The notes beneath the pieces were generated by a model. That model saw only the letters and a program-made list of their open reading frames with translations, did not search any database and was not told the DNA's origin. Made by a program: the position numbers and the translations under genes. Below, in pieces: positions 17,601-47,496 of a stretch of 64,000 nucleotides of DNA (positions within the stretch are counted from its first letter, which is position 1; every line of letters begins with the position of its first letter). Source of the DNA: the human T2T-CHM13v2.0 reference genome, Homo sapiens; the NCBI RefSeq assembly GCF_009914755.1, contig NC_060947.1. One strand, 5' to 3'.

Positions 17601-20214
<2,614 letters not shown>

Positions 20215-25111: not shown

Positions 25112-25164
25112 CCATACTACTACTATACACGTGATGGAGTTGCTATAAATAACAGTGTTATTTA

Positions 25165-25888
25165 TACCCTGGGGGATACATGACTTGCTGTCCTGGAGAA
25201 TTGAAGGACATCTTGTTTCTAGGCATGACTGGAACAGAGCCCCAGTGTTCCAGCCAGTCCCTGCCTATTTCAAGATGTTGCCTTCCCAGAATGTTCTACA
25301 GTTATCTTGAGAACTGCAAGTGAGAAAAGAGGGAGAACCGGGTCAGTCTAAGGCCACCCAGAGTTATTATATTGCTATAAATAACAACATTATATATTAG
25401 TCAATATATAGTCATATATTGAACATATAGTCAGCCTAATAATAGGGTTCTGTGACTAGTTGTTATAGCATAATTATGAACAGAACCCCCATGTATCAAT
25501 TTATATGAAGATTTATCAAAAATCTTTTGAAAACTCCATCCAGAGAGTCTTTACTATAGAGGAATTGTCACATTGTCCTTGTGACAATTAAATGTAAATT
25601 ATATAATTGCTTATATTTCTTTCATTCTATATCTGCCACAAAGAACACAACTTTATAGTTTAATTTTAATAACTATTGCAGGACACTTCTCTGGGTGGTC
25701 TTGGACTGACCCGGTTCTCCCTCTTTTCTCACTTGCAGTTCTCAAGATAACTGTAGAACATTCTGGGAAGGCAACATCTTGAAATAGGCAGGGACTGGCT
25801 GGAACAGCTGGGGCTCTGTTCCAGTCATGCCTAGAAACAAGATGTCCTTCAGTTCTCCAGGACAGCAAGTCATGTATCCCCCAGGGTA
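25165..25888. repeat. Inverted repeat with ~200-bp arms (25165-25363 / 25689-25888)
   Basis: Arms are reverse complements with 3 substitutions and one 1-bp indel. Confidence 0.92.
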
Positions 25889-26145
25889 CAAAACCCAGGG
25901 TGAGTTGCTTTCTGGGGTCCCTCAGCTGTGGGGCAAGTGAGGCATACACAGACAAGACTCCTTCCTTCTCTGGCAGCTTTCCTGAGCCTCAGGGGACCCG
26001 CTCATAATGATTCCTAGGCTTCCATTGTCCCTTGCTGCCTGTCTGTAAGTAATAAACCTGATTCATGTAACTTGTGTGTGTGTGGATGTTCTGTCCCACT
26101 GGACTCAGAGAAGTTGGTAATCAGTGCACAGTGAACCTGTTTCGT
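25677..26145 (+). mobile_element. ERVL-type solo LTR (MER73/LTR47-like)
   Basis: tgcagg start, aataaa at 26051, 'gtgcacagtgaacctg' terminus. Confidence 0.55.
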
Positions 26146-29100
26146 ATCTATGTTACTAAAATTCATTCAACACTGCATGAATATTTACAGTCCACTGATG
26201 CTCTGTTGTTGACTGTGTCAACATTGTCTGTGTTTTCCCTGATCATATTATAGATTCACATGTATTCATGTTACTATTCTGATTATTATAAACCTCCTAA
26301 ATCCAATGGTAAATGGAAGCAATAACTAAACAAAGAAACAAATGATGACTTAGCAGAGACCAGGTCTTTTCTGGTTCTTTTGTAGAGAAGAAAAGGGATC
26401 TATGAAGTCAGAGTTGGGGAAGTGAGGATGTACAAGTGAGGGGATACCTTGCAGAGTCTAGAATCAGCAGGGAGCTGCCTCCCTTCTCCTCTAGGCCATG
26501 GGGCTGAACCCTCCACATCCCCCCTCTCCTCCATCAACTACATTATATAGTCCACTGAAACACGCAGGTCTCTGGATAAGCTGCTGAAAGGGGACATAGA
26601 CATTGGAAGTCAGAATGGAACTGATCTATTTGGATTTGGAAATACTCATGAGTACCCAGACTTACAGATGATATTGTCTGGAGCATTATGGTGCAACATC
26701 CATAAGGTCTCTGGGAAAGCCTGCCTTATATTCCCACACAGAGGGTACAACAGCAGTAAACTCCACAACAGAGGGATATGCCTATCCCTGCGGTCCAGGT
26801 TAATGTTATAAGCAACTTTTGCCATTAGAATTGTCCTGACCTGAATCAGGATGCTAAGCATTAGTCTAGAGACAATGTGTGGCCAGACATAGCTTTGATT
26901 TGTTGGTGCATGTCTTGTGGGGCTATCTGAGGCATTTCCTGAATTCTTAATTATAAAGCAGTTTCCCCACTGCCAATCACAACCAGATATGATGATAGGT
27001 TGGCTAAGTATATATATTTAACAGGCTACAGAGAGAGCTATGAATACTCATGAAAGTAGTGATAAGCCCTGTCCAGTTCTTGAGACTGGATCAGCTTAAA
27101 TAGCTGTGTCTCATCCAGGAGGCGGCATTACAGATGGGCTAGGCCTCTGCCTCTGATGGAGACAAACAAATTTTTAATAAGAGGCATTTCTATGGAAACA
27201 GAAGAAAAACAAAGATTAATGTTGGGCACAATTTATTCAGATGTTAGACTCCAGGATCTTAATTATAGAGGAGGAAGGAAGAGGCAATCTGACACTTTTT
27301 TCTCACCTATGTTACAAGGAATAAGCTGCAGCTTGCAGGGCTTCAGGAAAAAGGTACTAGCAATTTCATTGAATCCAAGTCAGAAAAGTAAAAGAAAAAA
27401 TTGGAAAACATTAGTTTGGGGACTCATAGCCCGGAAATAATTTAGGATTCACTCCAAATTGTAGAAAATAATAAAAACTCAACAACAGTGAACAAAACTA
27501 GAATCTAACAATAAGTGTACTACATTTTTTTCCAAAACATACTTTTTCTCTCTCCAGTCCCTGTTTTTACTAAAGACAAATCACAGTAGGACAAATGTAT
27601 TTGCAAAATAAATTTTAGTCTTACTATTCTTGGCCTAAGTGTTTGCATAAAGTCAGCAGGAATAATTATTTGTCATATAGGCTCTTTTGAAAATTGGCTT
27701 TGCTGGAACTTTATTCCATAAGGAATCTTGGATTAGACTTTCAAAGCCTTGAGCCCAGCCATGGATTCATCTGTGCCTGCAATACTTGTATGATTTGGGT
27801 GAATTCCTCACTTCAGGTCCCAAGATAACTTGGAGCTCCTAGGCCTGTCAGAGAATGACATTCTTTACTTACCACAGGTCAAAAACCCTATACAGGGACT
27901 GCATAGACAATGCATGAGGCCAGTTTTTCCAAGGGGCTTTTATGGGCTTTATAAGTCAACTTTGATTCCTTAAAGCAGTATGAAAGTGTGCCATTCCAAC
28001 CAAAGCCTTGGTAAAGTAACCAGTATCTCCAGTTGTGTCTTGTTAGATAAGAAAACAGATTCTTATTGAACTTATGCAAATAACTTAAGTATACTAACAA
28101 ATGGTTTTAAAATTCTGGAGAAAGCAAGTAGAGGGAAAGAAATGTGTTTCAAGTTTTGCTCACAGGAGTGTACTTTATGCAATTGTTAAAAGCTGCAAAT
28201 AGCTCAAAAGAAAAAGTTTTTCTGGATTCTGAAAAACAAGAGTTAGCAATGTTTTAAACAAAATGCCATAAAAAGATTTTGGTCTTCTGTTGGTTCAGTC
28301 TATGTAATTAAGTCCTGTTCCACTCAATATTCATGAACACATTAGCTCTCTATGGGAGTCTTGGAAGTTTTGCCTCTATTCTGATGCCACAATCTCTGAA
28401 GTTATCAGAAACCTGCATTCAAGAGCAGCTCTCAGAGTCCTATAGCTGATTACAAAATCGTTTGAAAATAATCAAAGTAAAACAATTGTGGATGACAAAA
28501 GTCTTAGAATAACCATGATTAAAGTCTGAACATCTCTGTGGCATGCAGCAATTTAATATAACAATTATAATTATTACTTATATACTGAGACATAACAGAA
28601 TTGCAAGAATCATATACAATTTTGGAACACACACCAATAACACATTTATACAAATACAACCCAAAGAGATCTGAAAACCATTTTGTACTTGACAATACTT
28701 CCTGTATGATTTTAATATACAGAACAAGCTGAATATGTCCCTATTGGACTTTAGGGGACCCAATATCTAAAAGTGTTAACCAGATCAAAAAAGGGGGCTT
28801 AATTTAAAATCTGACTGTGGAAAGTTTGTCAAATATCAAAGGTTTAAACACTTAGTATTATAAAATAAAATTCTAGGTCACCATTAATAAAAGGGAAAAA
28901 TCTGTACTCATTAATAGAGGGGAAACAGCTTTCCAAACAGGACCCAATAAAGATGCATGAGGCCAGTTGAATCTGTCTCCTCTCCTCTCGCTTTTTTCTG
29001 TCATTTATTCCAAAGGTAAACAAAAATATTTCACTATCTTTTAATATTACATGCAAATCTTGTTCAAAAGAGAAAGCTAAATTTCACCTTTGTTTGCATT

Positions 29101-31046
29101 AGTGTACTATTAATGTTAAACCCAATTCTTAATAAAACCTTATAAACAAAATCTATCCAATCTTAATTAGTTTGACTATAAGGTAAAATTTCCAGAAACC
29201 TTTTATAATCCTTTACAGCTTTCTATTAAACAGCAGATCAATTCTCTAAGAAAACCCTGTTACTCAGACACAGGGGCCCAGATTCCGGCCCTGCATCAGT
29301 GTGCTTTCATTTCAATGTTCAACCCACAAAAAAACTAAATCATCCCTTTCAAATCTTAGGCAACTTGCTTATACCCACTGAACTTCGTTTATAAGATCCA
29401 CCCTTCACAAATTCTTCACAACTTGCTTAAACTTTCAGTTTTGTCCCATTACTCCTCTATGTTAGGACAATCTTAACCTCTGAACAAGACAAAATTACAT
29501 TCCCTTTAACAAAAACCATGTTTTCATGCCTTCTTATAATCTTTTACCAAAAACACATTCTACTTTCCTTACACACCTTGCATGTAAAACTATTTTTCCA
29601 GTAGTCGCAAGTACATATTACAATGTTAACTCTTAGCAACTTTTATTGTTGGTGAAAACCTGGCGAGTAAGCAATTTTAACCATGTATAAGATTGCAGAA
29701 CACATGACTTCCCAGCCTAGCCAGGGGGCCTGGCTAACTTCATATGTCCCCAGGCCTTACCTAGGATCTAATTGCTGTAAAACAGGCAAGTCAAGCAATT
29801 ACTAAAAGTCGTAGAAGCAGTTTATGACCTTAAAACATCTAGCAAACAGTATCCGATCCCCCCAATTTAGACCAAATATCTAAATTTTGAAGATATTTTT
29901 ATTTTACTTTACCAATAATCTTTAAGCTGTCTTTATTTTTCAAAGATTGTTAGAGACATTGTGACTTAAAAGGCATTAAAGTCTATTTTTCTGACAAAAT
30001 ATTTTATTTAAGTGCTTATCATTCTTAAGCCAATAAATTAGACCACTATCATATATTCTGGTAGCGAAACATCACACACATCATATATAAATACACAGAT
30101 ATGGAGATGATTTGGTAGGGTGACAAAAGATTAGATGCAAGAGGAAGGAGGAACAGACAGGAGCAGGTGCAGAATTAGACAGATATCCATCAACTGAGGA
30201 GGTTTTAGAGGCAGAGCAGGGGCTTTAAAACAATATCCATGCACATATAGTGCAAATATCAGCCTTAATTAAGTTGATTTCGAACTACAGAGCTCTCCAA
30301 AGGAGAATCATTTTAAAATATTTTATTACTAGATTTTAGTCAAGAGAAATGGCCAATATTTCTGGCTTTTGAATTCTTTTACCTCCTACATGAAATCAAT
30401 AAGCCTTAACTAATGGTATGACTTTACCACAGGTGCATGAAGTATCTTCAATGAGACAGCAAGCGGTTTTTACAAGATCTAGAATTGCTCCAAAGGTAGC
30501 TCAGAGAAAAGAAAATTTCAAGACAGGAAATCAGAAGCTGTCCATGGAAGGGAAAAGAACCAATAAATGGCAAAAAGTCACACACATAGCGAATGGGAAA
30601 GGACTAATTACCTAAGCTGGGAATTGAACCCAGGCTGCCAGTGTGAAAGGCCAGAATCTTAGCTCCTGAACTATTGCACAAGGTGACGACTACTGCTTCT
30701 TCCCAGGAGTCTAGAGCAGTCATTTTTGAGCTTGCAAATGATTTTAACTATTCAAGAAAATTTAGACTAGATATAACACAATCATGTGTCCTTTTTAGTC
30801 TCAAGAGTCAAAGCCCTGTAACTTAACGGCGCAAGGACTTTAAAGACAATACAGAAACTTACATGGATACAATAACCTTTTTAAGTCCATAATTTGAATT
30901 AGCTTTTAAATAACTTTTGAATTAGACAAAATTTTTTTTTGTCAATAAGAACATATTTTCCTTGTCACATTTTCTATAAAACTAGGAAGCAAGAAATTCT
31001 TTTTTTGAAAAAGTGAAAGCAATTTTATTAAGAAAGTAAAGGAATA

Positions 31047-34000
31047 GCCGGCTGTGTGGCAGCCCGCGAGGCGGTCCGCGGGAGCACACTCTGTGCAGAG
31101 ACTGGGCGGCCAGCCTGCCCTTGCTGTCGCTGACGGTGACTGCGGGAGGCCAGGTTGTTTTTCATCATTCAGAACATTGCCTGAAGCAGGTCCACCGTGC
31201 CGTTAGTAACGAGGAACATCGAGCCAAGGCACCTGTGCCGTCAGACGTTGCCTAGCGTTAGAAGCGAGCTGGAATGCGTGACCAACATCACCCTGGCAAA
31301 TGTCATCCGACAGCTGGGCAGCCTGAGTAAATATGCAGAGGACATTTTTGGAGAGCTCTTTACTCAGGCAAATACCTTTGCCTCTCCGGTAAGCTCCCTT
31401 GCTGAGAGGGTCGATGGACTACAAGTTAAAGTCACTCAGCTGGATCCCAAGGAAGAAGAAGTGTCACTGCAAGGAATCAACACCCGAAAAGCCTTCAGAA
31501 GCTCCACCATTCAAGACCAGAAGCTTTTTGACAGAAACTCTCTCCCAGTGCCTGTCTTAGAAACATACAATACCTGTGATACTCCTCCCCCTCTCAACAA
31601 TCTTACCCCTTACAGGGACGATGGAACAGAGGCACTCAAATTCTACACAGACCCTTCATACTTCTTTGATCTTTGGAAGAAGAAGATGCTGCAGGACACC
31701 AAGGATATCATGAAAGAGAAGAGAAAGCACAGGAAAGAAAAGAAAGATAATCCAAATCGAGGGAATGTAAACCCACGTAAAATCAAGACACGTAAGGAAG
31801 AGTGGGAGAAAATTAAGATGGGGCAAGAATTTGTGGAGTCCAAAGAAAAGCTGGGGCCTTTTGGGTATCCACCCACCTTGGTGTACCAGAATGGCAGCAT
31901 TGGCTGTGTTGAAAACGTGGATGCAAGTAGCTATCCACCACCATCACAGTCAGACTCTGCTTCTTCACCTTCTCCTTCCTTCTCCGAGGACAACTTGCCT
32001 CCTCCACCAGCAGAATTCAGTTACCCAGTGGACAACCAAAGAGGATCTGGTTTGGCTGGACCCAAAAGATCCAGTGTGGTCAGCCCAAGCCATCCACCAC
32101 CAGCTCCTCCTCTAGGCTCTCCACCAAGCTCTAAACCCGGGTTTGCTCCACCACCTGCCCCTCCACCACCCCCGCCTCCAATGATAGGCATCCCACCTCC
32201 ACCACCGCCTATAGGATTTGGGTCTCCAGGGACGCCTCCACCACCCTCAAGCCCATCTTTCCCACCTCACCCTGATTTTGCTGCCCCTCCACCTCTTCCT
32301 CCACCACCGGCAGCTGACTACCCAACTCTCCCACCACCTCCCTTGTCCCAGCCAACAAGAGGAGCACCTCCTCCTCCCCCTCCTCCTCCTCCGGGGCCCC
32401 CTCCTCCCCCTTTCACTGGTGCAGATGGCCAGCCTGCTGTACCACCACCGCTTTCTGACACCACCAAGCCCAAGTCCTCCTTGCCTGCCATAAGCGATGC
32501 CCATAGCGACCTGCTTTCAGCCATCTGTCAAGGTTTTCAGCTGCGCAGGGTTGAGGAGCAGCAGGAACAAGAGAAGTGGGATGTCGTGGGCAATGACGTG
32601 GCCACCATCTTGTCTCGTCGCATTGCTGTTGAGTACAGTGACTCAGAAGATGACTCCTCTGAATTTGATGGGGACGACTGGTCTAATTAACTCTTTCTGC
32701 CTGATGCCCACCTTCTTTTTCTTTCCTTCCTACTTGCCTTCTTTGATGCCAACCCCAACAGACCCATAGGGGAGAAAAGGGAGGAAAAACCTAATTTTAA
32801 GGGGCCGAAGCTTTCCCTGAAGCAACCAAAGCTATATCCAAGTGCTTCCTCCAAGTCACATGTATTTCCTCTTCCCATTGTCAGGCCCTGTGGGGCTCCT
32901 GAGATTCAGTAGCTGGGATGTTCCCTCTTTCCTTCAAGTGCCTGTTGCATGTTTAAAGGAAGGAGAAATCCCAAAGCAGATTCCTTTGATTGGGTTTCCG
33001 TTGGAGATGGGGCCTTCCCTTAGGAGCCATATTCAACTACAGTCTTCTAAAACCTGTGCCCTCAGCCACTTCGAATAATGCCAGCCACCTTCTGGTTCTA
33101 AAGCAGAGGGAGTGGCCTGAATGGACACAGCTGGCCCCTTTCCCGTACACTGAAAGGGCAGAGCAGGCCGAAGGCTCCAACGGCCAAACTGCCTCACCCT
33201 CTGCCCTAATCAGCAGGGTGGGCCTGCCTTTTGCTAAGCGATCTCTATGCCTGGGATTCCCTTTATTCCAGGAGACATTAAGCCTCTAAAGAATGTCTCA
33301 CCTCCTCTGCCCAAAAATGATGCTCTTCTGTAGGCTGGTGTTGTTGCTTCCCTCCCAGGATCCCTTTGGTGAGTGTGGTGTTCAGGATGCACCAGCACCA
33401 CCTCTACATGCTTTCAGGCAACACGGCCCAGTTTTAACCTCTAGTATCCATGACCAAACTATCCCTGACACATAAGGACAGGGGCCTCTTCTGGCTGTCA
33501 GGAGCAAAGCCTGAAGACTTGGAGCTGCAGGACTGGAAGAACAGTGGAGCCCCGTGGGTCCCACCCTTTAAGGATGCTGAGGCCTAGAGATGGGAAGTGA
33601 CTTGCTCAAGGTCACACAATTGGATAGTGACATAGCTAGAGCCCAGAGTTCCTGATTCCAAGTCACCTGTGCTTTCTGGGACCAAAGAATGGGCACCTGC
33701 TGGAGTCTTGGCAGAGCTTTCTTGGCTGTATTGCTACTCCAGACCTCACCATAGGTTGGGGTCCCAGTAGGAGGGCTCAGGGTCTGTGCCAGCCCTGTCA
33801 GTGCTGCTCAGATCTTCATAGCCTCTCTTGTCATTCTTTGTTGCCCCTTTTCTGTCACCAACCAACCACATAGCCTTGGGACCAGCCCCTCTGGGGGACC
33901 AGAAGTAGTGAGAGAAGGAAGGGGATAGGCAGCTTTGACAGGTGCTGTTTTCAATTCCTCTGCAACTCCTCCCCCTTTTATTTCCCCAATTTAAACAAAG

Positions 34001-36611
34001 ATTCTGCCAACTGTGGAAACTTCAGTCCCTCAGGCTGGCAGCTGTGCTGGTACCTGCCTGGGGGGGCCTGGCAGTCGTGAAGCAGGCTGAAAGGCAGAGG
34101 GGCTCCAGGTCCTGTTTCCAGCTCCCCTCACTGCACATGGTGAAGCTCCCTCCCTCCCCACTTTTCCCAGAGCTAATACACAGGTGCTATTATTCAGAAA
34201 AAAACTGGTCAGCTCTAACCAACAGTGAGGTTTCTTCTCTTCTGCCCTAACTATTGTGTAGCCTCTTATGCTGAAATTGGCTTCTGCCGGCTTATCTGGC
34301 TTTCAGAGCCCTGAAACAAAGAGAAACAGGATCTGTCCCTACCCAGCACAGCAAATGGTTGTAGTAATTGCCAAAGCCCTCGTAAAGCCCTCCGGCTTGA
34401 GGAGACAGTGTATAGTCATGAGTTCTGCCTCTGTGCCCTTGCTGGCCGCTTCCCCTTTGCCTTCTTTCCTGGAACTCAGGGTGTGGGGACTGAGCCTGTA
34501 GGGGCCAGCATGCCCTCCTGCTGTGGCCACTCCCAAGTGTGCCCTCTTCCCTCTCTCCAGATCAGGTGTCTCTAGCACAGGACTTGGCACCAAGCTCCAT
34601 GCTGAGACACCAGGCTATGTGGGCCCCCACCTTGTTTCCCAGCCTGTACCTTGGAAGCCGAAGGTGCTTTCATCAGAATCCTAAAATGGCCGTTGAAGGC
34701 GCCTGGGCCGCAGCCCAGCAGTAGCTGGAGAGGCAGGCAGAGGGCAGTGGTTCTCCCAAATAGGAGACCTGGGGCCTGGCCAGGCCAGGGTTTGGGCCTA
34801 ATGGCTTTGACTGAATTAACCCCATCCTCCTCCTTTCTGGAAAAGGGAGAGCTAGAGCCACTCACTGTCATTCTGCTCTGACCTTGAAGGGGGCGGTGTT
34901 GGCCTGGCTTCTGGAATGGACTGAGTCCATCGTGGAAAGGGCTGGGGGCAGGAGGAGGTGGGGAGGGGCACTGCCTGCGGAAGGTAGGATTAGATCATTA
35001 GCTCAGTGACCTCCTAGGGTTTCGATGTGCTGTGTTCTCATCCTACAGTTGGTTTGGTAATGATCTGCAAGTCCCGGAGAGCAACAGCAAAGCTCTGCCT
35101 GATGCTCTCATTAAAATCTATGCAGCCAAGTTCAGCACTTTGTCACAGCCGGCCTTGCGAAGCCTCCTCAGCTCGGGGGGCCGGGGACCCAGTGAGCTGG
35201 GAGGCCCTCTGGGCTCCACTTATGCATATGCACCAAAAAAAAAAAGGCTTCTTTAGACCCAGAGCCCTTTAAGATGATAAAGGACCCAATGCAGGTAATC
35301 CTGTTTTTGGACTCATGTAATGTAGAATGCTAAATTTAGTGATTATTTAATCTGGGCCTAAGCTAGTGAGAGTGTGGAACAATGGCCCATAATGACTCCT
35401 AAGCGGTGAAGCCAGGGGGCCTCCTCCCTTCCTGGTTCACCCCGCCCAGGGGACCTGCTCCCATTCCTATGGCCCTGGGGCCCAGCTTCCAATAGTGTCA
35501 GAAGTGACTTGTGGCTTTGCCTTGGTTGTGAGATGGGTACATTCTAAAGGAGCAGCCCGGGGGAGGGGGCAGGCTTAGCCAGCCCTTGGAGGCTCAGAGC
35601 AGCTGGCCCAGGCTCCAGCTCGCCTCCAGTGGAAGCCCGAGCGCCGTCAGAAACAACCCTGGCCAATGTCACCGCAGAGCCGAGGCGGTGTTGTCAGGGC
35701 TAATGTGAAATCTCTTCCCGTGGTGCTGATCCTCCGACTCTGCAGCACCAGCTTGGACAGACTGAGGTCTCTGTGGCTTTGCTGACTCTGCTTAAGCATT
35801 CCCACCGGGTCCCAGCTCTGCTCTAGGACTGCCTCCCACTGCGGCCCCTCACCTGACCTCAGGGCATGGGGAGGGAGGGAGCCAGTTCCCCAAGGCCAGG
35901 GGACTTTGCTCCTGAGAGATGTCAGGCTTCCTGGGGGCATCAGGCTTTGAGCTCTGCTGGGGTCCAGCTGACCTGGCACCAGGTGTTGCGCAGAGATGTG
36001 CCTCATTCTGTGCCTCCTGCCGTGTTCACTTTAACTGTGCCTCAGTGCGGGTTAGGGAATAATTTTGTCATTGTATTAAGTTTATCCAGTTAATTAACTT
36101 GAGGAACTAACCAATTTTTACCTTCTGTCTGGAATGATGTACATGTAGTAGAGTAAGCCATAATGTTCCCAAAGTGCCTTGTTTTCTCTGATACAAACAT
36201 ATTTATAAGGACGTATTCCAGTGGGTTCTTGGGTGTGTTTGCCACAACAAGATTTTAGGGAAGGGGTGTATGTGTAGTAGGGATGCCGTTTGAAAACAGG
36301 CCCTCTTCCCCTGAGGAAGGGAAAGGAACTCTTCAGTTGGAGATCTGGGCAGTGGGTTAAGCCAGACCCCTAAAGTGACCCTTTCCTCTTCTGCCCTATT
36401 CTTCTCAGACCCTCTGAAAGACATCCAATTTTTTTAAAGCCCTGTAGCTCCAAGCCTGGTCTCATTTGCTTCCCTGCCAGGCTCATTGTGTGTATACCAC
36501 ATTTGTGCCCCACTGACCTGAAGGTTCCATGTAACTGTATACACATGAATACTTAAATGCCAACATTTTAAATAATTTGATAAAGTCTTTGTAGCCACAA
36601 AAAAAAAAAAA
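31047..36611 (+). pseudogene. WASF4P: Processed pseudogene of WASF2 (WAVE2): 5'UTR, CDS, ~3.9-kb 3'UTR, polyA
   Basis: Intronless WAVE2-like ORF; A tail 36599-36611; TSD gtaaaggaata (31036-31046 / 36613-36623). Symbol is from recall of the X-linked WASF2 retrocopy. Confidence 0.85.
31197..32690 (+). CDS. Uninterrupted 497-codon WAVE2-like reading frame with GTG in place of the ATG (translation uncertain)
   Basis: WHD ([13 protein letters not shown]..), basic region, polyproline region, VCA ([22 protein letters not shown]). Confidence 0.55.
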
Positions 36612-36676
36612 CGTAAAGGAATAAAGAATGGCTACTTCATGGGTAAGAGCAGTGGCATGGGCTGCTCGACTGAGTA

Positions 36677-36684
36677 TATTTATA
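36677..36684 (-). promoter_or_regulatory. TATA box (TATAAATA) of the MER41 3' LTR
   Basis: Lies ~30 bp upstream of the position homologous to where the 5' R copy begins. Confidence 0.55.
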
Positions 36685-36704
36685 GTTATTTCTTGATTAT
36701 ATGC

Positions 36705-37070
36705 TGTATTAATCCGTTTTCACACTGCTATAAAAGAACTTCCCTGAGACTGGGTGATTTATAAAGGAAAGAGGTTTAATTGACTCAGTTTTGCGTGGCT
36801 GGAGAGGCCTCAGGAAATGTATAATTATGGCAGAAGGGGAAGCAGGCACCTTCTTCACAAGATGGCATGGGAGAAAAGAGCAGGGGAAACCGTCACTTAT
36901 AGAACCATCAGATCCTGTGAGAACTCACTCACTACCACGAGAACAGCATGGGGGAAACTGCCCCCATGATCCTGTCACCTCCCACCAGGTCCCTCCCTTG
37001 ACAGGTGGGAATTATGGGGATTACAATTAGAGATAAAATTTGGGTGGGGACACAGAGCCAAACCATATCA
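36705..37070 (-). mobile_element. THE1/MST-type MaLR solo LTR inserted in MER41 U3
   Basis: tgtatt...ccatatca termini; 5-bp TSD tatgc. Confidence 0.88.
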
Positions 37071-37103
37071 TATGCTAAACAACGGGTGGATTATTCATGA
37101 GTT

Positions 37104-37133
37104 TTCTGGGAAAGGGGTGGGGATTTCCCAGAA
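37104..37133. promoter_or_regulatory. Tandem GAS (STAT) motifs in the MER41 LTR
   Basis: TTCTGGGAA at 37104-37112 and TTCCCAGAA at 37125-37133, both TTCN3GAA. Confidence 0.65.
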
Positions 37134-40100
37134 CTGAGGGGTCCTCCTCTTTTTAGACCATATAGGGTAACTTCCAGACATTGCCATGGCATTTGTAAAC
37201 TGTCAAGGCACCGGTGGAAGTGTTTTTTAGCATGCTAATGGATTATAATTAGCGTATAATGAGCACTGAGGATTACCAGAGGTCACTTTCGCTGCCATCT
37301 TGGTTTTGGTGGGTTTTGACTGGCTTCTTTACTGTATGCTGTTTTATCAGCAGGGTCTTTGTGATCTGAATCTTGTGTGGACATTTTATTTCATCCTGTG
37401 AGATAAGAATGCCTAACCTCCTGGGAATGCAGCCCAGTAGGTCTCAGCCTTATTTTACCCAGCCCCTATTCAAGATGGAGTTACTCTGGTTCGAACACCT
37501 CTGACATATTCCCCCCTCCCTTTTACAAGGGAACCCTTAATCCTAGCAATTGTAGAGGGACAAAGATCCATCTTCTGTAATTTTCAGGCCAAACAGGGCG
37601 ATGACATTCCTGCCTAACTACTGGGGTGTCTTGTATCCAGGGTAGAGAGGAGCTCAGTGAGAAAACATCATTACACTGAGGGCCATTCATAACTCCGACT
37701 TCTGATCAAAGGTGATATCTGGAAGATTGGTATGTGTTCAATTTAAGAAAACATTGAGTAAGCTTACCTATCCAGCATTTCTACACAGAATACAGCAGGA
37801 ATATATTCCACAACAGTAAAGTAAAATAAGCAAAATTATTCTAAGTAAATGAAAAAAATAAGGCATTCAATGAACTGGGCAGCTGTTGGGACCAAACTGA
37901 TATGGGGTTGCTAGCCAATTCCAATATGTGCCCAGAATTAGAATATTGATCCAGATTTCTACAGTACCCATCCCTCTTGTTTCTTCTGAGCTCCAGTTAA
38001 AGATCACTGGTTGATTCACAGGAATAAGTAGGGTTAGTCTAAATTGCAGGAAAAAAAAAAACAAAAACAACTGATGAGACTAGAATCTAATAACAGGTGT
38101 GCCATAGTTCTTGAAACATAATTTTTCTCTTTCCAGTCTTCATTTTTATTAAAAACAAATCATAATAGGGCTAATTTGTTTATAAAATCAGCTTTAGTCT
38201 TATACTTGGCCTGTTTATTTGTATAAAGTGCAGCAAGAATAATTATTTTCACATAGGCTTTTTAAAAATTGGCTTTGATGAAACTTCGTTCCATAAAGAA
38301 TCTCAGATAAGACCTTTTTTAAAGCTGAGCCCCAGCCATGGGTTTGTACTGTCAAATGCCTATACGAGTCAGGTAAATTCCTCTCCTCTTGAGGTTCCAT
38401 AATTTTGGAACACATACCAATAACATATTTATTATAAATAAATAAATAAATAAATAAAACCTTTACTCATTAATACAGGGAAGACTTAGTTTTCCAAACA
38501 ATCTGTTTCTTTCCTTTCCTCTCTTTTTACTATAATTTATTCAAAAGGCAAACAAGAATCTTTCAATATTTTTAATATAACATGAAAATCTTGTTCAAGA
38601 GAGAAAGACAATTTCACCCTTTGCATTGGTGTGCTATTAATGTCAACCCCAATTCTTAATAAAACCTTATAGACAAATCTATCCAATTTTCATGCCTGAC
38701 CGTAAGGTAAGAGTCTCATAAACTTTTTATAACCCTTTACAGATTTTTGTTAAAGAACAGATCAGTGCTCTAAGAAAAACCTATTGTGCTTTTATTCCAA
38801 TGTTCAACTTATGAAAAAACTGAATACCCCTTTAACTTTAGCCAGTGTTCACACATAGAATTTCTTTTACAAGATTAATCCTTCATAAACCTTCCATAAG
38901 TTGCTCAAAAGTTTAGCTTTTTCCTATCAAACTTAAAACAAGACTTTAACCCTTTAATCTAGGCAAAAAAAAAAAAATCCACATTCCCATGCCTTCTTAT
39001 AATCTTTTATCAAAAACACATTTTACTTTCCTTACACACCTTGCATGTAAAACTGTTTCCTCAGTAGTTTCAATTACATGTTACAATATTAACTCTTAGT
39101 AACTTTTATTTTTGGTGAAAAACTTAGTAAGTAAGCAATTTTAATTATGTACTAGGTGTGGGGCTTAGGACACCAGACAGAAGTGCAGATAAAGTCTGAC
39201 TCTTTTCAGCATTGCTAGGGGTTATGGCTAACTCCACATGTCCCCAGGCCTTATGTAGAAACTAATGGCTCTAAAGCAGGTAAGTTGAACAATTTTCAAA
39301 AGTCAAAGAAATAACTTATGACCTTAAAGCATTCATCAAACCTAATATCTGACCTGCCTAATTTAGACCAAATGTCTAAATTTTGAAGACATTTTTATTT
39401 TACCAATAATCTTTAAAACTATCTTTATTTCTCAAAGATTACTAAAGTTATGTGAACTAAAAGGCATTACAGTTTTTATTTTTCTAACAAAATATTTGAT
39501 CACACATCACACACACACACAACACATATAAATACACAAACAGTCAGAAGATTCTGTAGTTGTAAGATTTTTCATTTGCCAGTTTTTGTTTCTCAATTGG
39601 ATTACTGGCTTCAGGGTAGAGCCCTTTGAGGAACAGGGCCAGGAAACCATTCAGTTTCAAGGGCCTAGTAAGCAGGCACAGCTGGAAGGCAAAACAGATC
39701 CCCCAAAATTAAGGGTCCCATTTTTATACCAGATCTTAGATCCCAAAGAGGAGGGAATCAGTCCATCTCCCATAAAAGCCCATAACTGCCATTAGCCAGC
39801 CCTAAAAGTATATTTCCTACTTAGTAATTAGACACCAAAGTTCTCTCATAATGCGAAGTAATTTCTGATACCCCCAAATGTCAAAAACATCAGACAACAC
39901 AATGTAAAACAGAACAGGGCCTTAGATTTTGGGAGAGATCTATCCACTTTCAATTCCTGGGGTTTCATGAGGAAAACAGAGGTTTTTCCCCAAACAGCGT
40001 GTGTGGCACCTCCTCTGTTTTCCCCAAAGAGTCCCAGCCTGTTAGAAATTTTCTTAGGTCCTCTCATGTATGCATCAAGAGTGGCAAGAAAACAAAATGG

Positions 40101-40863
40101 AGAAAAATGACTTTTCAGTTGACTGAAAAGAAAAACTTTTTCTCAAGAAAAACAAGATTTGAGAAAAAACCATAAAGGCCTTTTCAATATACCCATAGCT
40201 TGAATATCCACTTTTAATTAAGCTGACTTTTAACCATAGTGCTCTTTTTAAAAAAGTCTTTTAAAATTTCTTATTATCCAACTTTTAGCCAAGAAAAATG
40301 GTCAATATTTCTGGCTTTTGAACTTTACCAAAGATAACTTCCCAGGTGCTCAGAGAAAGGAAAATTCAAGAGGGAAGTCAGAAGTTGTTCATGGAGAGGA
40401 AGAGAATCAACAAGTGGCAAAGGTCACACAGATATCAACCAAAAAGTACTCATTCCCTAGACCGGGAATTGAGAGCCTGGGCTACCACTGTAAAATGGCA
40501 AAGCCTTAGCTACTGAGCTACAGCACTGAGCAGTTTTCATTGCTCTTCCTAGGAATCTAGAGTCAGCCAATTTTGAGCTTGCAAAGGTTTTTAACTGCTC
40601 TGGATAATTTTTAAGGCTAACTATAACATGAACTCCAAAATTCCTGTTCCCTTGATGGTGGAGACCAAGAGAAAGTACCACCCACCTGGTTACAAAGTCA
40701 AGCTCCCAAGGACATAAAACAAGATGAGAGGGAAACTTCATCCAGTTTTTTTTGTTTGTTTCACAGGTCTACAACCAGGAGTTTCAACATGTGGTCTTTG
40801 GGCAGGATGGTTGCTCTGAGTAACAGAAAATATAGGAAAGGGAAAGGAGAGAAAGAGAGAGAG

Positions 40864-41155
<292 letters not shown>

Positions 41156-43644
41156 AGAGAGAGAGAGAGAGAAAGCATTCCCTGCGGTGGGGAAGGTGAA
41201 GAGCTCAGGGAGGCCAGAGAAGGACCTACTCATTGAAGCAACACTGAATCAAAAGTTCAAATGGCCACTTGTCAGTTGTGAAGGGATCTTTTCCAGCAGT
41301 CCCATCAGCTCTCAAGTTTCCCCTTTTGGGAAGGAAGAAGTTCCCCATGTTCCACGGTCTTGTATATGCCTAATCCTGTCACCCACAGTCGTCAGCAAAG
41401 AGTATAAGACAGATTAATCCAAAGAGAATAGCGGTGGCATTAATCCATAATGCCAAATTCATTTTTAACCAAGAGGGACTTTACTGAGAGGGGCCTTTAA
41501 CCCTCTAAATCTTAGGAAGGACTCTAACCTTCCTAAATTGGGCCTGAGACCCAAGTTTGGTCAAGAAGCCTTGCCTTTTATTAAGATGGGCCTTTAACCC
41601 TCTCTATCTTAGGAGAGTCTATCCTAAGTTGGGCCTCTAACTCAATCCCACCCTTTACCCAGGTAAAATATACCCCACCACTTACCCAAAATCAGCCAGT
41701 TGGTGCTGCAGTCTATTTCCTCTGGATCAGGGGGTCTCCTCAGTAGAGTCCCTTTGTGGTTCACCAGGAAGATGTTAGTGGAAAGGGGTCCCAATCCAGA
41801 CCCCAAAAGAGGGTTCTTGGATCTCACACAAGAAAGAATTCAGGGCGAGTCCACAGAGTAAAGTGAAAGTTTATTGAGAAAATAAAGGGATAAAGAATGG
41901 CTACTCCATTGGCACAGCAGCCAGAAGCAAGAAGTTCTGAACTGCCTATCAGATATTACCATTTTATAAATGAGAACCAGTCCATAATTTTGGAACATGT
42001 TTCCTATATAATAACCCTTTCTTAGTTGGAAATGACCCAGACATTCAACAAGCATCTACAATGATTTTAAGAACTTAAATCATACAAAAAAGTTTTACTT
42101 AGAAGCATTTATCTCATTTATATGCATATAATTCTCCCATTTTTAACCGTTTACTTAGATTACTTCTGAAAACTGAGATCTTACCACAGAGGTAGTCATT
42201 ATTGAAAGTTAATTCCCTGTTAACCATTTTAAAGCTTGTGAACATCATGTGTTCATCTAAGTAAGAACCTTAAAGTTAAAACACATAGGCATTTTGTTGA
42301 TAACTCAGAAGGTTTAGCTATTTTCCTCAAACAATATTAAATGTCTTATCAAAAATTACACAAAGATCATTCTGTCTTGGGCTGGGTTTATAGTTTTGTA
42401 ACTCTTATGCCAAATTTTGGCACCTAATGATATCTGGCAGAGATAAATATGAAACCGCTTGATCAATAAGCTCAAATGAAAATGTATGTTGACAATTCTT
42501 AAGATATTTATAATATTATTTTACCAATAATGTAAAGCCAGCTTATTTATTAAAGATTTTACTTAATTTATGAGTATGTCTTAACTCTAAGGAATTTGGT
42601 TCCTTGTGACCACAATACATAACAAAATACATGTACATATGCATAAACACACACATACACACTCATATTAAGCAGGCCGAAAATAAACAGAGGAAGATAT
42701 CACCTGGCTGCCTTCTGCAAGGGTGGCATGAGGTAGGGGGAGAGAGGGGAAGAAAGAGATGAGAGAATAAAGCAATGGAAAGGGAGCTCAGGAGCCCTCC
42801 TGCAGACATTGAGTGGTGTGAGGTTGATACTTCCACCACCATCATTTATCTCCCATCAGGGAGAGCCTCAGCACCCTAAGTCTGCACAGTGTGGGATGGG
42901 TTCCTCCTACTTCTGCAAGTCACTGGTCAGGCAAACTGTTTCCAGCCAGAGGGAGCTAGAGCTGCCTGCAGCTGAGAAGAGTAAAGCTGTAAGCGGCTCT
43001 CCAAAGATAGAAGGGTGAAGTTGGAGGTAGAGAGGAAAGAAATCAGGGCCCATACACAAAGTCATATATTCATATATGCAAATAGACAGCATGCTTCCAC
43101 ATGAGTCCCCAACCAAGGGGGCTGGGTGAGGTCCTGAATCCCTCTCCCCAGTTCCAAATGGCTCCATGGGCTGTTAAGTCCAGTCCGAGCACAGGTCCCA
43201 TGGTGCCGCACATACAAATAAATACAAATGCATTAAAATGCTCAAATGATGTCACTAACAGCCAGGTCTTAAGTAGAGCAGGGCTTCAGTGACACCCCAA
43301 AAGAGACAGAGGGTGGTCAGGTGCACTGCCAACCAAATTACCCAGTTCCAAAGTTTGTCAGCTCTTTCTCTTTTTCTCCCAGAATTCACTTCCCTTGCAC
43401 AGGCAATGCATTGAAGGCAGCAAATGTTGTGCTGGGAGTGGGGAGCAAAAGGGAAATTTCCCCATAAGAAAGCATTTTTTGCAGCTGCTGGGAAGCTCCC
43501 TAATGCTTTCATCGTGGGACCTGATAGCCATGAGCAGCTGGCACTCACAGGTGACCCCATGTCTCATCTGATAGCGAAATTGGGTGGTCAGGCAGAAGCC
43601 TACCTGGAGCACAGAGCATGTCCCTGTATGGGCCACCAAAAATT

Positions 43645-44156
43645 GCAACCAAAAAGTGGGTTAGTTGCTTGCTGAATGTAGAGTCCAATTAACAAGAGTG
43701 AGTCCTGGTACTTTCCAGAAAAGTGATTTTATTTCCAAAGCTAGTTTGGGGGAGTGCACAAAGTGTCCAGCTTTAAATGTACTGCTTCACCTTTGGAAGA
43801 AAAAGTGGGCATTTATATAATGTAGGGGAGGAAATGAGCAAGGGCAGGGCTCTTCTGCTAGCCTTATCTGTACCTTATCTACTGGGCCGTTGTGTTGCCA
43901 CCTTCCTGGGCAGAAGTAAGTTGTAAAAGTGGCTAAGTGGGCATGCTCTGGGCATGTCCTCCTGAGGCAACACCCTGGAGGTGGGAGTTCCCTCTTGGAG
44001 CACACAGATGAACTTGCCCTGTAGGAAATGCCTGGAGAGGGGGAGGTGAGAAGTTATTTTGCACTTGAAAAAGGGCTAAATGGAAAGTAGGAGGAAAGGG
44101 GAAAGGCGAAAAGAGAAAAAAACTGTTGCTTAGGAAAACGGGAGTACTCAGTTACA
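43645..44156 (-). mobile_element. ERV1-type LTR, likely the 5' LTR of the host ERV
   Basis: Adjacent to the PBS; minus strand begins 'tgtaactgagtac'; polyA signal near 43728. Confidence 0.55.
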
Positions 44157-44160
44157 GTTG

Positions 44161-45121
<961 letters not shown>

Positions 45122-45599
45122 GTTGCACAACAATGTGAATATACTTAACACTACTGAACTATAAACCTCGAAATGGTTAAGATGCTAAATTTTATGTTAT
45201 GCATTTTTTACAATAAAAAATGGGATGTTACAATAAAAAATGGGATGCAACATATGCTCACCTTTGGGTGGTCCCCAGGTGTGCATACGTTGTGGCTGTA
45301 CATGCTAGTATATATGTTACATGTCTTACATCTCCACCCAGGGGTGTGTGTGTATATATATGTATATATATTTACTATTAAAATGAGCAAAACGTTACCT
45401 TGAGGGCAAGCCAAGTTGAAGTGCACATGCTTACTGCTGGGGAAAGTCCCTACTGAAGTTATGTCCTGCCAGGGCCAGATAAGTCCCAGTTAGGGCCAGA
45501 TAAGCCTAACTGCAAGTCCAGATATGGCCATTGTTTTTTCTGATTGCTAGTGGGGTAAGGTTTCCAGGGCTTCCTTACTTTGAGGCTGCCTTTCCTGCT

Positions 45600-45680
45600 C
45601 ATGTCTGTCTGTCTGTCTGTCTGTCCTGCTGTCTATCTATCTATCTATCTATCATCTATCTATCATCTATCTATCTATCT
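45600..45680. repeat. Compound (TCTG)n/(TCTA)n tetranucleotide repeat
   Basis: Directly visible. Confidence 0.9.
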
Positions 45681-45813
45681 ACTCTAACATCTGGAGGTTT
45701 TTTTTTTTTGTCTTGTGGATGGAAAGATCTTAAATAAAATTTTAGCAATTTGAATCCAGCAAGTATGGAAAGAAAAATTTACCCCATGACCAAATTGGAT
45801 TTTCCAGTAAGGC

Positions 45814-46349
45814 TGTTGATGGTGATTGTGAGTCCTCAGTTCTTGTCTTCTTGGTTTAAAGAATTTAAGCAAGAGACACACAGCAAGGGAGATACAGCCA
45901 TAAACCAGTTTATTACAAAATTGAAAGAGCACTCTGAGAGCTGAGTCAGAGTGGGCTGCTCAAGAGTGAGACACCCCTGGCTGACACTAGGGAAGCTCCC
46001 TTTAGGGGAGTTTTACATGATTATTCTTAAGAGGGTGGGAAAGGGCATTGCTAGTAAGTATGTTATGGGTGGTCCTCTAGGTGCACATGTTCGGTAACTG
46101 TACATGTTTGTTCATACATCACATCTCATTAGCATCTTAAATCTCCATCCAGCAGTGTGTTTTTCACTAGTATAATGAGCAAAAAGTCAGTCCAAGGACA
46201 AGTAAAATTAAAGTGCATGCTTTCTACTGGCTGAAGTCCCCACTGAAGTTAGGTCTTGCCTAAGCCAGAGGAGCATGACCACAAAGCAAGCATTGTGTTA
46301 ACACATCCTGATAGACATGGCTACTTTCTTGACTACGTCTCCTACTTCA
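45814..46349 (-). mobile_element. ERV1 MER4-group LTR (related fragment at ~45240-45560)
   Basis: tg...ca termini; shared motifs 'catctccacccagg' and 'aagtccc(t/c)actgaagtta'. Confidence 0.55.
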
Positions 46350-46832
46350 ACTTCAAGGTAAAGATGGTTAATGTTAATACATCTATCTGTTTATTTCACT
46401 ACATCAAGAAATAAAGGAGAAAACGACAAAATCACATCAATGGATACTAAAAAAGCATTTGACACAATTTGGCAGTATTCTCAAACTAAAACCAGACTAA
46501 AATGGGAATATGAAAATTCAGAAAAGATTACAGGCTCAAAATCACCAGGAAGCCTATTACTAAAAGGTAAAATGCTGAAGTTGCTACCAGTAAAACTAGT
46601 AATGACATACAGTTGTTCCTATCACAACGGTGTTTTGAAAAAGCTCTAGCTAATGCGATGAAATATGAAGATAAAATAAACTGATTATATATTAAGAAAG
46701 GAGAGGTAATCATTTTTATTTGCAGATGATATCATTGGAAGGGTGTTCATGCTATACAGTGAAAGAAGTTGTGGCTTCCCACCTCACAGAGCAGAACAGT
46801 GGTGCTTCCCTGGGAAGAAATGGCCTGCACTG

Positions 46833-47496
46833 CTGTTAGAGTAGGTAGATAGGCAGATATGAGCAGAAGAGGATAGGGCCCCAAAGAGTGTCAAGTGACT
46901 CTCAGTTGACTGTCAGGTGGTTGTCAGGTGGCTGGTGACAGGGAGGGGAAAATTTCCTAACAAACAAGAGACATCTTGAGCTTGTTGGCAACAATTTCCC
47001 AATAAGAACTTAAAATGGCAAAGTTTGATTTTCCTCTGGGAACATGTCCAGGCATGCACAGTAAGGGGCAAAATGGTGGAGTCTGACCTATATATGATCT
47101 TCCTCCAGGGGCACTAGACCAGTAAGTGAAAATTGCCCTAAGACAGCATGCACATAACTTCAATAATTAAATGGCTCATGCCGCCCCTCCCAGATACTGG
47201 CAAGTCACTGTGCCTGTGGTGATTAGCCAACAGCCTATCCAAGAGGAAGGTTGAGACTGGGAAGAATCAGGAAATAGTAACTCTATATTATAATTATTAT
47301 ATAAGAGCCCTGAGCCAACAATCAGGTGGGGCGTTCCATCTTTTGAGTTGCTTGCTTGGTTCCTTTCAAGTGTACTTTGCTTCAATAAACTCTCATTTCT
47401 GCCTTAAATCTACTTCTGTTTCTCAGCTGAATTCTTTCTCTCAAGAAGACAAGAATTGAGGACTGTAGACCCTGCCCAGACTCACTGCCAGTAACA
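46833..47496 (+). mobile_element. MER50-like solo LTR
   Basis: 'tgttagagtaggtagataggcagatatgagcag' start, aataaa, 'gtaaca' end. Confidence 0.7.

What the first reader, a model, noticed from the sequence alone, without database searches (positions are those of the whole stretch)
30986..41938. MER41 ERV apparently integrated as an L1-made processed retrocopy rather than a provirus
Seen, on the minus strand: the element starts at a position matching ~30 bp after the LTR TATA (41923) and has only R-U5 at its 5' end. It has U3-R at its 3' end and stops ~17 nt after AATAAA (31024-31029) in a short A tail (T run 31000-31006). It is flanked by a 15-bp duplication, gaagcaagaaattct (30986-31000) / gaagcaagaagttct (41924-41938). 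Known: integrase gives two full LTRs with 4-6-bp TSDs, whereas R-U5..U3-R-polyA with a long TSD is the L1 TPRT signature described for HERV-W processed pseudogenes. Inference: MER41 genomic RNA was mobilised in trans by L1, which I do not recall being well described for MER41. The ends also map the ancestral TSS and polyA site.
Basis: partly seen in the sequence, partly recalled or inferred. Interest (0 to 1): 0.8.

Follow-up and report, generated by a model that had tools for sequence, protein, structure and literature searches.

The report
L1-made copy of MER41 RNA
A transcript of an ancient retrovirus-like element (MER41 type) was pasted into chromosome X by the LINE-1 copying machinery rather than by retroviral integration, and the same signature recurs at hundreds of other places in the human genome, although reviews credit this route to the HERV-W family alone.

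Summary
Confirmed. On the minus strand, 41923 to 31001 is a copy of a full-length, unspliced MER41B-type ERV transcript. It starts at the U3/R border with no U3 and runs R-U5-PBS-non-coding interior-U3-R. It ends 17 nt after AATAAA in A6-7 and is flanked by a 15-bp duplication (14/15). In six of seven paralogs of the host repeat both 15-mers map onto one shared 12-15-nt stretch and the flanks abut. So it is a true target-site duplication, and the nick site is TTCT/GA, the LINE-1 signature.

Two later insertions split the 3' LTR:
- a solo LTR with a 5-bp duplication;
- WASF4P, a processed pseudogene of a chr1 gene, which really spans 31048-36612.

The locus is not a one-off:
- 26 of 39 best relatives start within about 2 nt of the same base without U3.
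- All 7 with a visible 3' end stop in R, and 5 have 9-16-bp duplications.
- Three are copies of doubly spliced RNA.
- Genome-wide, R followed by an A-run occurs 203 times (at most 1 mismatch, control 0), against 1056 read-throughs into U5.

A 2017 review calls HERV-W the sole L1-mobilised HERV group. I found no paper describing this for MER41.

The parts
41924..41938 (.). Target-site duplication, copy on the 5' side of the element (GAAGCAAGAAGTTCT on +)
   Evidence: In paralogs of the host repeat this 15-mer and the one at 30986-31000 map onto one and the same stretch.
41923..41923 (-). One extra base (T on the minus strand) between the duplication and R; untemplated or a flank remnant
   Evidence: The base before GGCTGC varies (A, T, G, C) among 26 R-start copies, whereas proviral copies read G there.
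41860..41922 (-). R of the 5' end (about 63 nt), starting at the inferred transcription start GGCTGC and containing AATAAA
   Evidence: The R end is defined by where 7 relatives stop before their A-runs.
41773..41859 (-). U5, ending ...CCACTAACA
   Evidence: 3' LTRs of proviral relatives end at the matching position, 151 of the query (LTR ends ...GTAACA).
41750..41766 (-). Primer-binding-site-like TGGTGAACCACAAAGGG, 6 nt after the LTR end
   Evidence: with the same place in relatives. That it fits tRNA-Arg is recalled, not tested.
41680..41687 (-). Major splice donor GG|GTAAGT (exon ends at 41686); unspliced in this copy
   Evidence: Three relatives are joined exactly here to downstream exons.
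37507..41772 (-). Non-coding interior. Relative to other copies it lacks about 0.83 kb at about 38400 (TGGGA microhomology junction) and carries an Alu at 40865-41157 (+)
   Evidence: Collinear with 20 relatives. No Pfam family in 13 ORFs. Deletion junction, Alu.
37711..37721 (-). Last splice acceptor (..ccag|ATATCACC; exon starts at 37718), about 210 nt before U3
37071..37506 (-). U3, first part: LTR start TGTCAG, tandem GAS sites 21 bp apart (37104-37133), MER41B-like 'M2' motif from 37090
   Evidence: Motifs as printed in PMC2897888.
36700..37075 (-). Nested solo LTR 36705-37070 (TG..CA ends) with 5-bp duplication TATGC (36700-36704 and 37071-37075): a later integrase-type insertion
   Evidence: Four more copies of this repeat are in the window. 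The THE1/MST (MaLR) name is recalled only.
36655..36704 (-). U3, last part, with TATAAATA at 36684-36677
36625..36654 (-). 3' R, first part (up to the WASF4P insertion point)
   Evidence: family D9: 36614-36643 against 41883-41912, 90%.
31030..36624 (+). WASF4P. Processed copy of a 9-exon chr1 gene at 31048-36598, A14 at 36599-36612, own duplication GTAAAGGAATA (31037-31047 and 36614-36624; 15/17 if extended to 31030 and 36607). A later L1-made insertion into the antisense R
31008..31047 (-). 3' R, last part, with AATAAA at 31029-31024. Copy ends 17 nt after the hexamer
31001..31006 (-). Poly(A) remnant (A6, or A7 with the first base of the duplication)
30986..31000 (.). Target-site duplication, copy on the 3' side (GAAGCAAGAAATTCT on +). 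Inferred L1 nick on the + strand after 31000: TTCT/GA

Best explanation
A MER41B-type endogenous-retrovirus transcript was reverse-transcribed into chromosome X by LINE-1 target-primed reverse transcription, not by retroviral integrase.

The inferred course of events:
- The RNA started at the U3/R border of a source element's 5' LTR. It was left unspliced and was polyadenylated in the 3' LTR's R.
- L1 endonuclease nicked the + strand at TTCT/GA inside an older, related interspersed repeat.
- The T-rich 3' end primed on the poly(A) tail and the whole RNA was copied.
- Repair of the staggered second cut gave the 15-bp duplication.

The product (R-U5-PBS-interior-U3-R-An) has no promoter at its 5' end. 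It does carry a complete U3, with its tandem STAT1-type sites, at its 3' end.

Later a MaLR-like solo LTR, an Alu and a WASF2 mRNA copy (WASF4P) inserted into it.

Shown: the anatomy, the true target-site duplication, and the recurrence of the same ends in many relatives, including copies of spliced RNA.

Inferred: that the enzyme was L1 ORF2p.
For: **Ends**
- R-only 5' end and U3-R-A6-7 3' end.
- The 5' end lies about 30 nt after TATAAATA, and the 3' end 17 nt after AATAAA.

**Duplication**
- 14/15 identity, reached by 1 of 53,047 slid positions.
- Empty-site test: in 6 of 7 paralogs of the host repeat (L042-L046, L048) the left flank ends and the right flank begins on the same 12-15 nt. L047 has no informative left-flank match.

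**Nick site**
- TTCT/GA, four pyrimidines then two purines.

**Contrast within the data**
- The nested solo LTR has TG..CA ends and a 5-bp duplication.
- Proviral relatives L039 and L040 have full LTRs with TG..CA ends and 4-bp flanks matching at 3 of 4.

**Recurrence**
- Of the 39 best other matches to the R-U5-leader, 26 start at the same place with no U3 upstream, 12 have U3 and 1 is unclear.
- The upstream flanks of the R-start copies are unrelated to each other: 2 of 325 pairs are similar.
- All 7 R-start copies with a visible 3' end stop in R and none enters U5. 5 of the 7 have 9-16-bp duplications that start in A-rich sequence.

**RNA origin**
- L024, L028 and L037 lack two introns bounded by GT..AG in the long copies.

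**Genome-wide**
- R end plus A-run: 203 matches at up to 1 mismatch and 826 at up to 3 (reversed-pattern controls 0 and 9).
- Read-through into U5: 1056 and 2252 (controls 0 and 5).
- The first 10 exact R-plus-A matches all show A7-A15 followed by unrelated sequence.
Against: - The A tail is very short (6-7 nt). The duplication has one mismatch, and one unexplained base sits at the 5' junction.
- The nick site TTCT/GA is only a degenerate match to TTTT/AA.
- No orthologous empty site from another primate could be examined. The empty-site test rests on paralogs.
- Two of the 7 relatives with both ends in view (L026, L037) show no clear duplication. In L029 and L037 the A-run does not follow R directly.
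- The 39 relatives are the best-scoring matches to this window's own 5' end, so the 26:12 ratio is not an unbiased family estimate.
- Three of the 26 (L059, L061, L064) were classed from the printed junction, because BLAST gave no hit in the 260-nt pieces.
- At 3 mismatches the A-run pattern can cross-match some read-through variants.
- The MER41 name rests on published motifs, not on an alignment to Dfam or Repbase.
- That L1, and not another reverse transcriptase, did the copying is inferred from the signature only.
Confidence: 0.93

Rival explanations
1. An ordinary integrase-made provirus that later lost its 5' U3 and 3' U5 by deletions; the flanking 15-mers are a chance repeat or native to the host repeat.
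For: Old ERVs are often truncated, and this one has suffered other deletions and insertions.
Against: - Both truncations fall exactly at the R boundaries, and an A-run follows.
- The host repeat family holds the 15-mer once, with the flanks abutting, in 6 of 7 paralogs.
- 26 other copies share the same 5' end, with unrelated upstream flanks.
- There are no TG..CA termini and no 4-6-bp duplication.
Confidence: 0.02
2. An RNA-derived copy made by a reverse transcriptase other than L1's (for example a retroviral RT acting on its own polyadenylated RNA) and inserted at a chance chromosome break.
For: The RNA origin is well supported, but the enzyme is not seen directly. The nick site is an imperfect L1 motif.
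Against: - Break-repair insertions are not expected to give regular 9-16-bp duplications that begin in A-rich sequence next to a poly(A) tail, as seen here and in 5 relatives.
- WASF4P and an Alu in the same locus show the same signature.
- That L1 is the only known source of this signature in primates is recalled knowledge.
Confidence: 0.04
3. The locus is a DNA-level duplicate (segmental duplication or gene conversion) of another MER41 retrocopy, or a recombinant between the related host repeat and a MER41 element, rather than an insertion of its own.
For: The host repeat is about 70-74% similar to the interior and lies in the same orientation. One pair of relatives, L050/L051, is indeed a duplicated locus.
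Against: - The best other copy is only 84% identical.
- The junctions carry a poly(A) tail and a duplication of a single host 15-mer.
- The insertion point in the host does not correspond to the element's own ends.
Confidence: 0.01

Closest known systems
HERV-W processed pseudogenes made by LINE-1 (Pavlicek et al. 2002, not held here; Grandi et al. 2016, PMC5016936, passages read)
   Same: The same three marks as listed in PMC5016936:
- 5' LTR reduced to R-U5 and 3' LTR to U3-R;
- a poly(A) tail;
- a TT/AAAA-type site with a 5-15-bp duplication.

The excess over proviral copies is similar. ERV-W stands at about 2:1 (PMC5775608). Here it is 26 against 12 in a biased sample.

MER41 is placed in the same HERVW9 supergroup (PMC4724089 and PMC5753468).
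   Different: - The LTR and interior differ. The interior shows no gag, pol or env remnant that Pfam can see, whereas HERV-W copies carry those genes.
- Copies of doubly spliced RNA are present.
- The number of 3' ends (203 to 826) may exceed the 135 HERV-W pseudogenes.
- Reviews state that HERV-W is the sole HERV group moved by L1 (PMC5537654 abstract).
Ordinary processed pseudogenes of cellular mRNAs (WASF4P in this same locus is one)
   Same: An intron-free or full-length RNA copy, a poly(A) tail and an 11-17-bp duplication at an A-rich site.
   Different: The template is a retroviral-type transcript bounded by R repeats. The copy therefore deposits a complete LTR promoter/enhancer (U3) at its 3' end.
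Non-autonomous L1 passengers such as Alu and SVA (recalled)
   Same: Non-coding RNAs copied in trans by L1 many times over.
   Different: - MER41-type elements also exist as LTR-flanked proviral copies with TG..CA ends. They therefore used two routes.
- Nothing shows that an L1-made copy, which lacks a 5' promoter, could itself be a source.

Membership tests
L1-made processed pseudogene of an ERV (criteria of Pavlicek 2002 as quoted in PMC5016936) | 5' LTR consists of R-U5 only | tested here: met
   The element starts at 41922/41923. No U3 match lies upstream, while U3 precedes the same base in 12 proviral or solo relatives.
L1-made processed pseudogene of an ERV (criteria of Pavlicek 2002 as quoted in PMC5016936) | 3' LTR consists of U3-R only | tested here: met
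   U3 spans 37506-36655 and R ends at 31008. No U5 follows, whereas proviral 3' LTRs run on to U5 position 151.
L1-made processed pseudogene of an ERV (criteria of Pavlicek 2002 as quoted in PMC5016936) | Poly(A) tail after R | tested here: met
   A6-7 at 31001-31006, 17 nt after AATAAA. It is short.
L1-made processed pseudogene of an ERV (criteria of Pavlicek 2002 as quoted in PMC5016936) | Target-site duplication of variable length (5-15 bp) | tested here: met
   15 bp at 14/15. A single copy with abutting flanks is found in 6 of 7 host-repeat paralogs.
L1-made processed pseudogene of an ERV (criteria of Pavlicek 2002 as quoted in PMC5016936) | TT/AAAA-type insertion motif | tested here: met
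   TTCT/GA on the primer strand, a degenerate pyrimidine/purine version. In relatives the duplications begin AAAA..., AAAG....
Integrase-made provirus | Two complete LTRs with TG..CA termini | tested here: not met
   The termini are the R start and a poly(A) tail. Proviral relatives L039 and L040 do show TG..CA.
Integrase-made provirus | 4-6-bp target-site duplication | tested here: not met
   The duplication is 15 bp. The nested solo LTR shows what the integrase type looks like: TATGC, 5 bp.
MER41 (Repbase/Dfam LTR family, MER41B-like) | Two GAS sites in tandem, 21 bp centre to centre, as in the MER41B consensus (PMC2897888) | tested here: met
   There is one match in the 64-kb window, at 37104-37133 inside U3, against 0.01 expected. 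The feature is also present in 5 of 20 relatives' loci.
MER41 (Repbase/Dfam LTR family, MER41B-like) | The 26-nt motif that PMC2897888 derives from MER41B | tested here: met
   - In the window the motif matches at 22 of 26 from 37090. It is cut by the nested solo LTR, which is why (up to 3 mismatches) found nothing.
- It is found with 1-3 mismatches at 17 places in 14 of 20 relatives' loci, always at the end of U3.
MER41 (Repbase/Dfam LTR family, MER41B-like) | Alignment of the LTR and interior to the Dfam/Repbase models MER41B and MER41-int | not testable with these tools
No repeat library is on hand.

The most novel reading that the evidence does not exclude
MER41B-type elements are a second HERV group moved by LINE-1, possibly a larger one than HERV-W. 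At least about 200 and perhaps about 800 L1-made copies exist in the human genome, including copies of spliced RNAs.

U3 lies in the last 0.5 kb of the RNA, so even 5'-truncated L1 copies would carry it. A sizeable share (16-27% by the pattern counts) of the STAT1-binding MER41B 'LTRs' would then have been scattered by L1 rather than by retroviral integration.

The supposed restriction of L1 retroposition to HERV-W transcripts would not hold.
Probability: 0.55. Interest if true: 0.75.

Novelty: new member of a known kind. Interest (0 to 1): 0.64.

Why it matters
- **Literature.** A review states that HERV-W is the sole HERV group mobilised by L1 (PMC5537654, abstract). Another paper asks which determinants 'limited the L1-retroposition to (H)ERV-W transcripts' (PMC5775608, Discussion passage). 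A related family with the same signature, in hundreds of copies, turns that question into a comparison that can be made.
- **Immunity.** MER41B LTRs are known interferon-inducible STAT1-binding elements (PMC2897888). If many were spread by L1, the history of that regulatory network changes.
- **Transcript map.** The L1-made copies are fossil cDNAs. They fix the start site, the poly(A) site and two introns of an extinct element's transcripts.
- **Annotation.** WASF4P is about 1.2 kb longer than its RefSeq span, and it sits inside this element.

Tried and rejected
**Searches and tests that gave nothing**
- Pfam scans for gag, pol or env found no family:
  - window interior ORFs of 40 aa or more (13) and host-flank ORFs (41);
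  - 52 ORFs from L038-L040;
  - three-frame read-through with X at stops of the L039 and L040 interiors;
  - the host neighbourhood 20149-27500 and 41939-48200.
  
  So 'host ERV' could not be confirmed by coding evidence. The host is a repeat about 70% similar to the interior.
- The 26-nt MER41B motif at up to 3 mismatches gave no match in the window. The nested solo LTR cuts it, and 4 mismatches are needed.
- A tree of the first 245 nt of 21 copies is star-like. L1-made and proviral copies are intermingled (6 changes against 6.1 in shuffles), so no separate source lineage is shown.
- The automatic duplication finder gave nothing convincing for L021, L022, L030, L033, L034 and L036, whose 3' ends are missing or outside the 10 kb. 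It also gave nothing for L026 and L037.

**Readings considered and dropped**
- *A chimeric or twin-primed origin of the antisense WASF copy at the R boundary.* WASF4P has its own poly(A) tail and duplication, and the R sequence resumes after it.
- *Splicing as the cause of the 0.83-kb gap in the window's copy.* The junction is a TGGGA microhomology, not GT..AG.

**Resources not available**
- Chuong 2016 and Pavlicek 2002 are not held, so I could not check whether Pavlicek et al. examined other families.
- Supplements were not consulted.
Full report
**1. Observation**

Read on the minus strand, the element begins at 41923/41922 with T-GGCTGCTG directly after the 15-mer at 41924-41938. It ends at 31008-31001 with ...AATAAAATTGCTTTCACTTTTTC-AAAAAA, directly before the 15-mer at 30986-31000. 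The two 15-mers match at 14 of 15. When the same spacing is slid along the window, only this position of 53,047 reaches 14/15. Among 2,000,000 random pairs, 6 do.

**2. Anatomy (minus strand)**

| Feature | Coordinates |
|---|---|
| R | 41922-41860 |
| U5 (ends ...CTAACA) | 41859-41773 |
| Primer-binding-site-like TGGTGAACCACAAAGGG | 41766-41750 |
| Splice donor GG\|GTAAGT | 41686\|41685 |
| Interior | 41772-37507 |
| U3 start (TGTCAG) | 37506 |
| TATAAATA | 36684-36677 |

The interior is collinear with 20 other genomic copies. TATAAATA lies about 30 nt upstream of the base that aligns with 41922. The 3' R is in two pieces, 36654-36625 and 31047-31008.

**3.

- *WASF4P.*
  - From 31048 to 36598 the + strand matches nine exons of a chr1 gene in order and without introns, at 93-99% identity, followed by A14 to 36612. 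That the parent gene is WASF2 is recalled, not tested.
  - It has its own duplication, GTAAAGGAATA (31037-31047 and 36614-36624; 15 of 17 if extended). The MER41 R sequence resumes right after it.
  - RefSeq ends WASF4P at 35423, about 1.2 kb short.
- *Solo LTR.* A 366-bp solo LTR (36705-37070, TG..CA ends) lies in U3 with a 5-bp duplication, TATGC. This is the integrase-type footprint, for contrast.
- *Alu.* An Alu sits at 40865-41157.
- *Deletion.* The copy lacks about 0.83 kb that 5 other copies hold. The junction is a TGGGA microhomology, not a splice.

**4. Is the 15-mer a real target-site duplication?**

The right flank is itself a repeat: 716 first-look candidates, of which 40 were scored. 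In L042, L044 and L048 the window's left flank aligns up to locus position 1515 and the right flank from 1501. In L045 and L046 the figures are 1510 and 1496. In L043 they are 2444 and 2455 on the other strand. L047 has no informative left-flank match.

So in 6 of 7 paralogs the flanks abut and both 15-mers fall on one shared 12-15-nt stretch. The nick inferred on the + strand is TTCT/GA.

**5. Family**

No repeat library is on hand. Schmid and Bucher (PMC2897888, passages read) report two features of the MER41B consensus. It has two GAS sites 21 bp apart, and they print a 26-nt motif that resembles MER41B.

- The window has exactly one such GAS pair, inside U3 at 37104-37133, against 0.01 expected.
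- The motif starts at 37090 with 22 of 26 matches and is cut by the nested solo LTR.
- The motif recurs with 1-3 mismatches at the end of U3 at 17 places in 14 of 20 relatives' loci.

I therefore accept 'MER41B-like', with the Dfam alignment untested.

**6. The locus is one of many**

The window's first 244 nt (R-U5 plus leader) found 40 scored matches among 2794 candidates.

- Of the 20 loci fetched at 10 kb, 13 start at R with no U3 upstream and 7 have U3.
- Of 19 further junctions fetched at 260 nt:
  - 13 start at R. L050/L051 are a duplicated locus. L059, L061 and L064 were classed from the printed junction.
  - 5 have U3, and 1 is masked by an Alu.
- Together that is 26 R-start, 12 with U3 and 1 unclear.
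- All 26 begin (N)GGCTGC..., and their upstream flanks are unrelated: 2 of 325 pairs are similar. This excludes an alternative U3.
- Seven R-start copies have their 3' end in view, and none runs into U5.
  - An A-run or A-rich stretch follows directly in five (L024, L025, L026, L028, L038) and within 7 nt in two (L029, L037).
  - Duplications of 9-16 bp are clear in five (L024, L025, L028, L029, L038) and unclear in two (L026, L037).
- Proviral relatives L039 and L040 have TG..CA LTR ends and 4-bp flanks matching at 3 of 4.

**7. RNA origin**

L028 and L037 (different chromosomes) consist of three pieces:
- R-U5-leader up to the donor;
- a 125-nt internal segment;
- the last 210 nt of the interior plus U3-R.

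L024 uses the same donor and last acceptor with another small exon. In five long copies these borders read TTTGG|GTAAGT..cag|, |GTGAGT and ..tcttccag|. These are copies of doubly spliced transcripts. The window's copy is the unspliced form.

**8. Genome-wide count**

| Pattern | Up to 1 mismatch (control) | Up to 3 mismatches (control) |
|---|---|---|
| R end followed by five A | 203 (0), 72 of them exact | 826 (9) |
| Same R end reading on into U5 | 1056 (0) | 2252 (5) |

The control is the pattern read backwards. The first 10 exact A-run matches all show A7-A15 and then unrelated sequence. So 16-27% of such R ends are poly(A) ends.

Caveats: some matches are segmental duplicates, and at 3 mismatches a few read-through variants can cross-match.

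**9. Nature of the element**

- No Pfam family was found in the window's interior ORFs, in 52 ORFs of three long copies, or in three-frame read-through of two proviral interiors. The interior is non-coding as far as Pfam sees.
- A tree of 21 copies is star-like, with end branches near 0.1 (0.084 for the window). L1-made and proviral copies are mixed. This indicates one burst.
- Frith (bioRxiv 10.1101/2024.12.11.627920, passages read) dates MER41 entry to the simian ancestor.

**10. Mechanism**

The best reading is L1 target-primed reverse transcription of a polyadenylated LTR-to-LTR transcript (confidence 0.93). The anatomy, the true duplication and the RNA origin are shown. The identity of the enzyme is inferred from the signature.

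**11. Literature**

- Five searches touching MER41 or ERV processed pseudogenes found no description of MER41 copies made by L1.
- Grandi et al. [quoted passage not shown]
- Vargiu et al. 2016 did not separate processed pseudogenes from proviruses (passages).
- Pavlicek 2002 and Chuong 2016 are not held.

**12. Limits**

- No ortholog could be examined and no Dfam alignment made.
- The sample of relatives is biased.
The 5'-truncation spectrum of the poly(A) ends is therefore unknown.

Noticed in passing
window 31048-36612 (+): WASF4P extends about 1.2 kb beyond its RefSeq end (35423) to a poly(A) tail at 36599-36612. A 501-codon stop-to-stop frame (31185-32690) is still open. Coding exons are 96-99% identical to the chr1 parent, against 93-95% for the UTR exons.
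   Followed up: partly
L073 (G000:C1:202863270-202863359): Another MER41-type poly(A) end abuts the antisense R of a second MER41 LTR at GTAAAGGAATAAAG. This is the same spot where WASF4P entered the window's R, so it may be a recurrent L1 target in antisense MER41 R.
   Followed up: no
window 36700-37075: A solo LTR (TG..CA, 366 bp) with a 5-bp duplication TATGC lies inside the MER41 U3. Four more copies of this repeat are in the window (5197-5630, 48299-48712, 53413-53795, part at 62788-62897). It looks like a THE1/MST MaLR LTR from memory only.
   Followed up: partly
window 27436-30985 and 41939-about 43900: The host repeat is collinear with the MER41-type interior at about 70-74% identity and in the same orientation. 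No Pfam retroviral domain was found in it or around it, and its family is unnamed here.
   Followed up: partly
L029, positions 6933 and 7267 (oriented): An Alu entered at the 3' target-site duplication of a MER41 retrocopy and duplicated the same 14-mer again, giving three copies of one target.
   Followed up: no
L024, L028, L037: 1-kb 'mini' elements (R-U5-small exon-U3-R-An) are retrocopies of doubly spliced MER41 RNA. L028 and L037 share both junctions although they lie on different chromosomes.
   Followed up: yes
window about 38396-38410 (minus strand): A deletion of about 0.83 kb relative to five other copies has its junction at a TGGGA microhomology. It removes the 125-nt internal exon.
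   Followed up: partly
G000:C1 120.3-148.7 Mb and L050/L051 on C23: Six R-plus-A-run matches sharing the same AATAAG variant lie in pericentromeric chr1, and an inverted pair lies on chrX about 100 kb apart. These are probably segmental duplicates of single retrocopies, which slightly inflates the counts.
   Followed up: no
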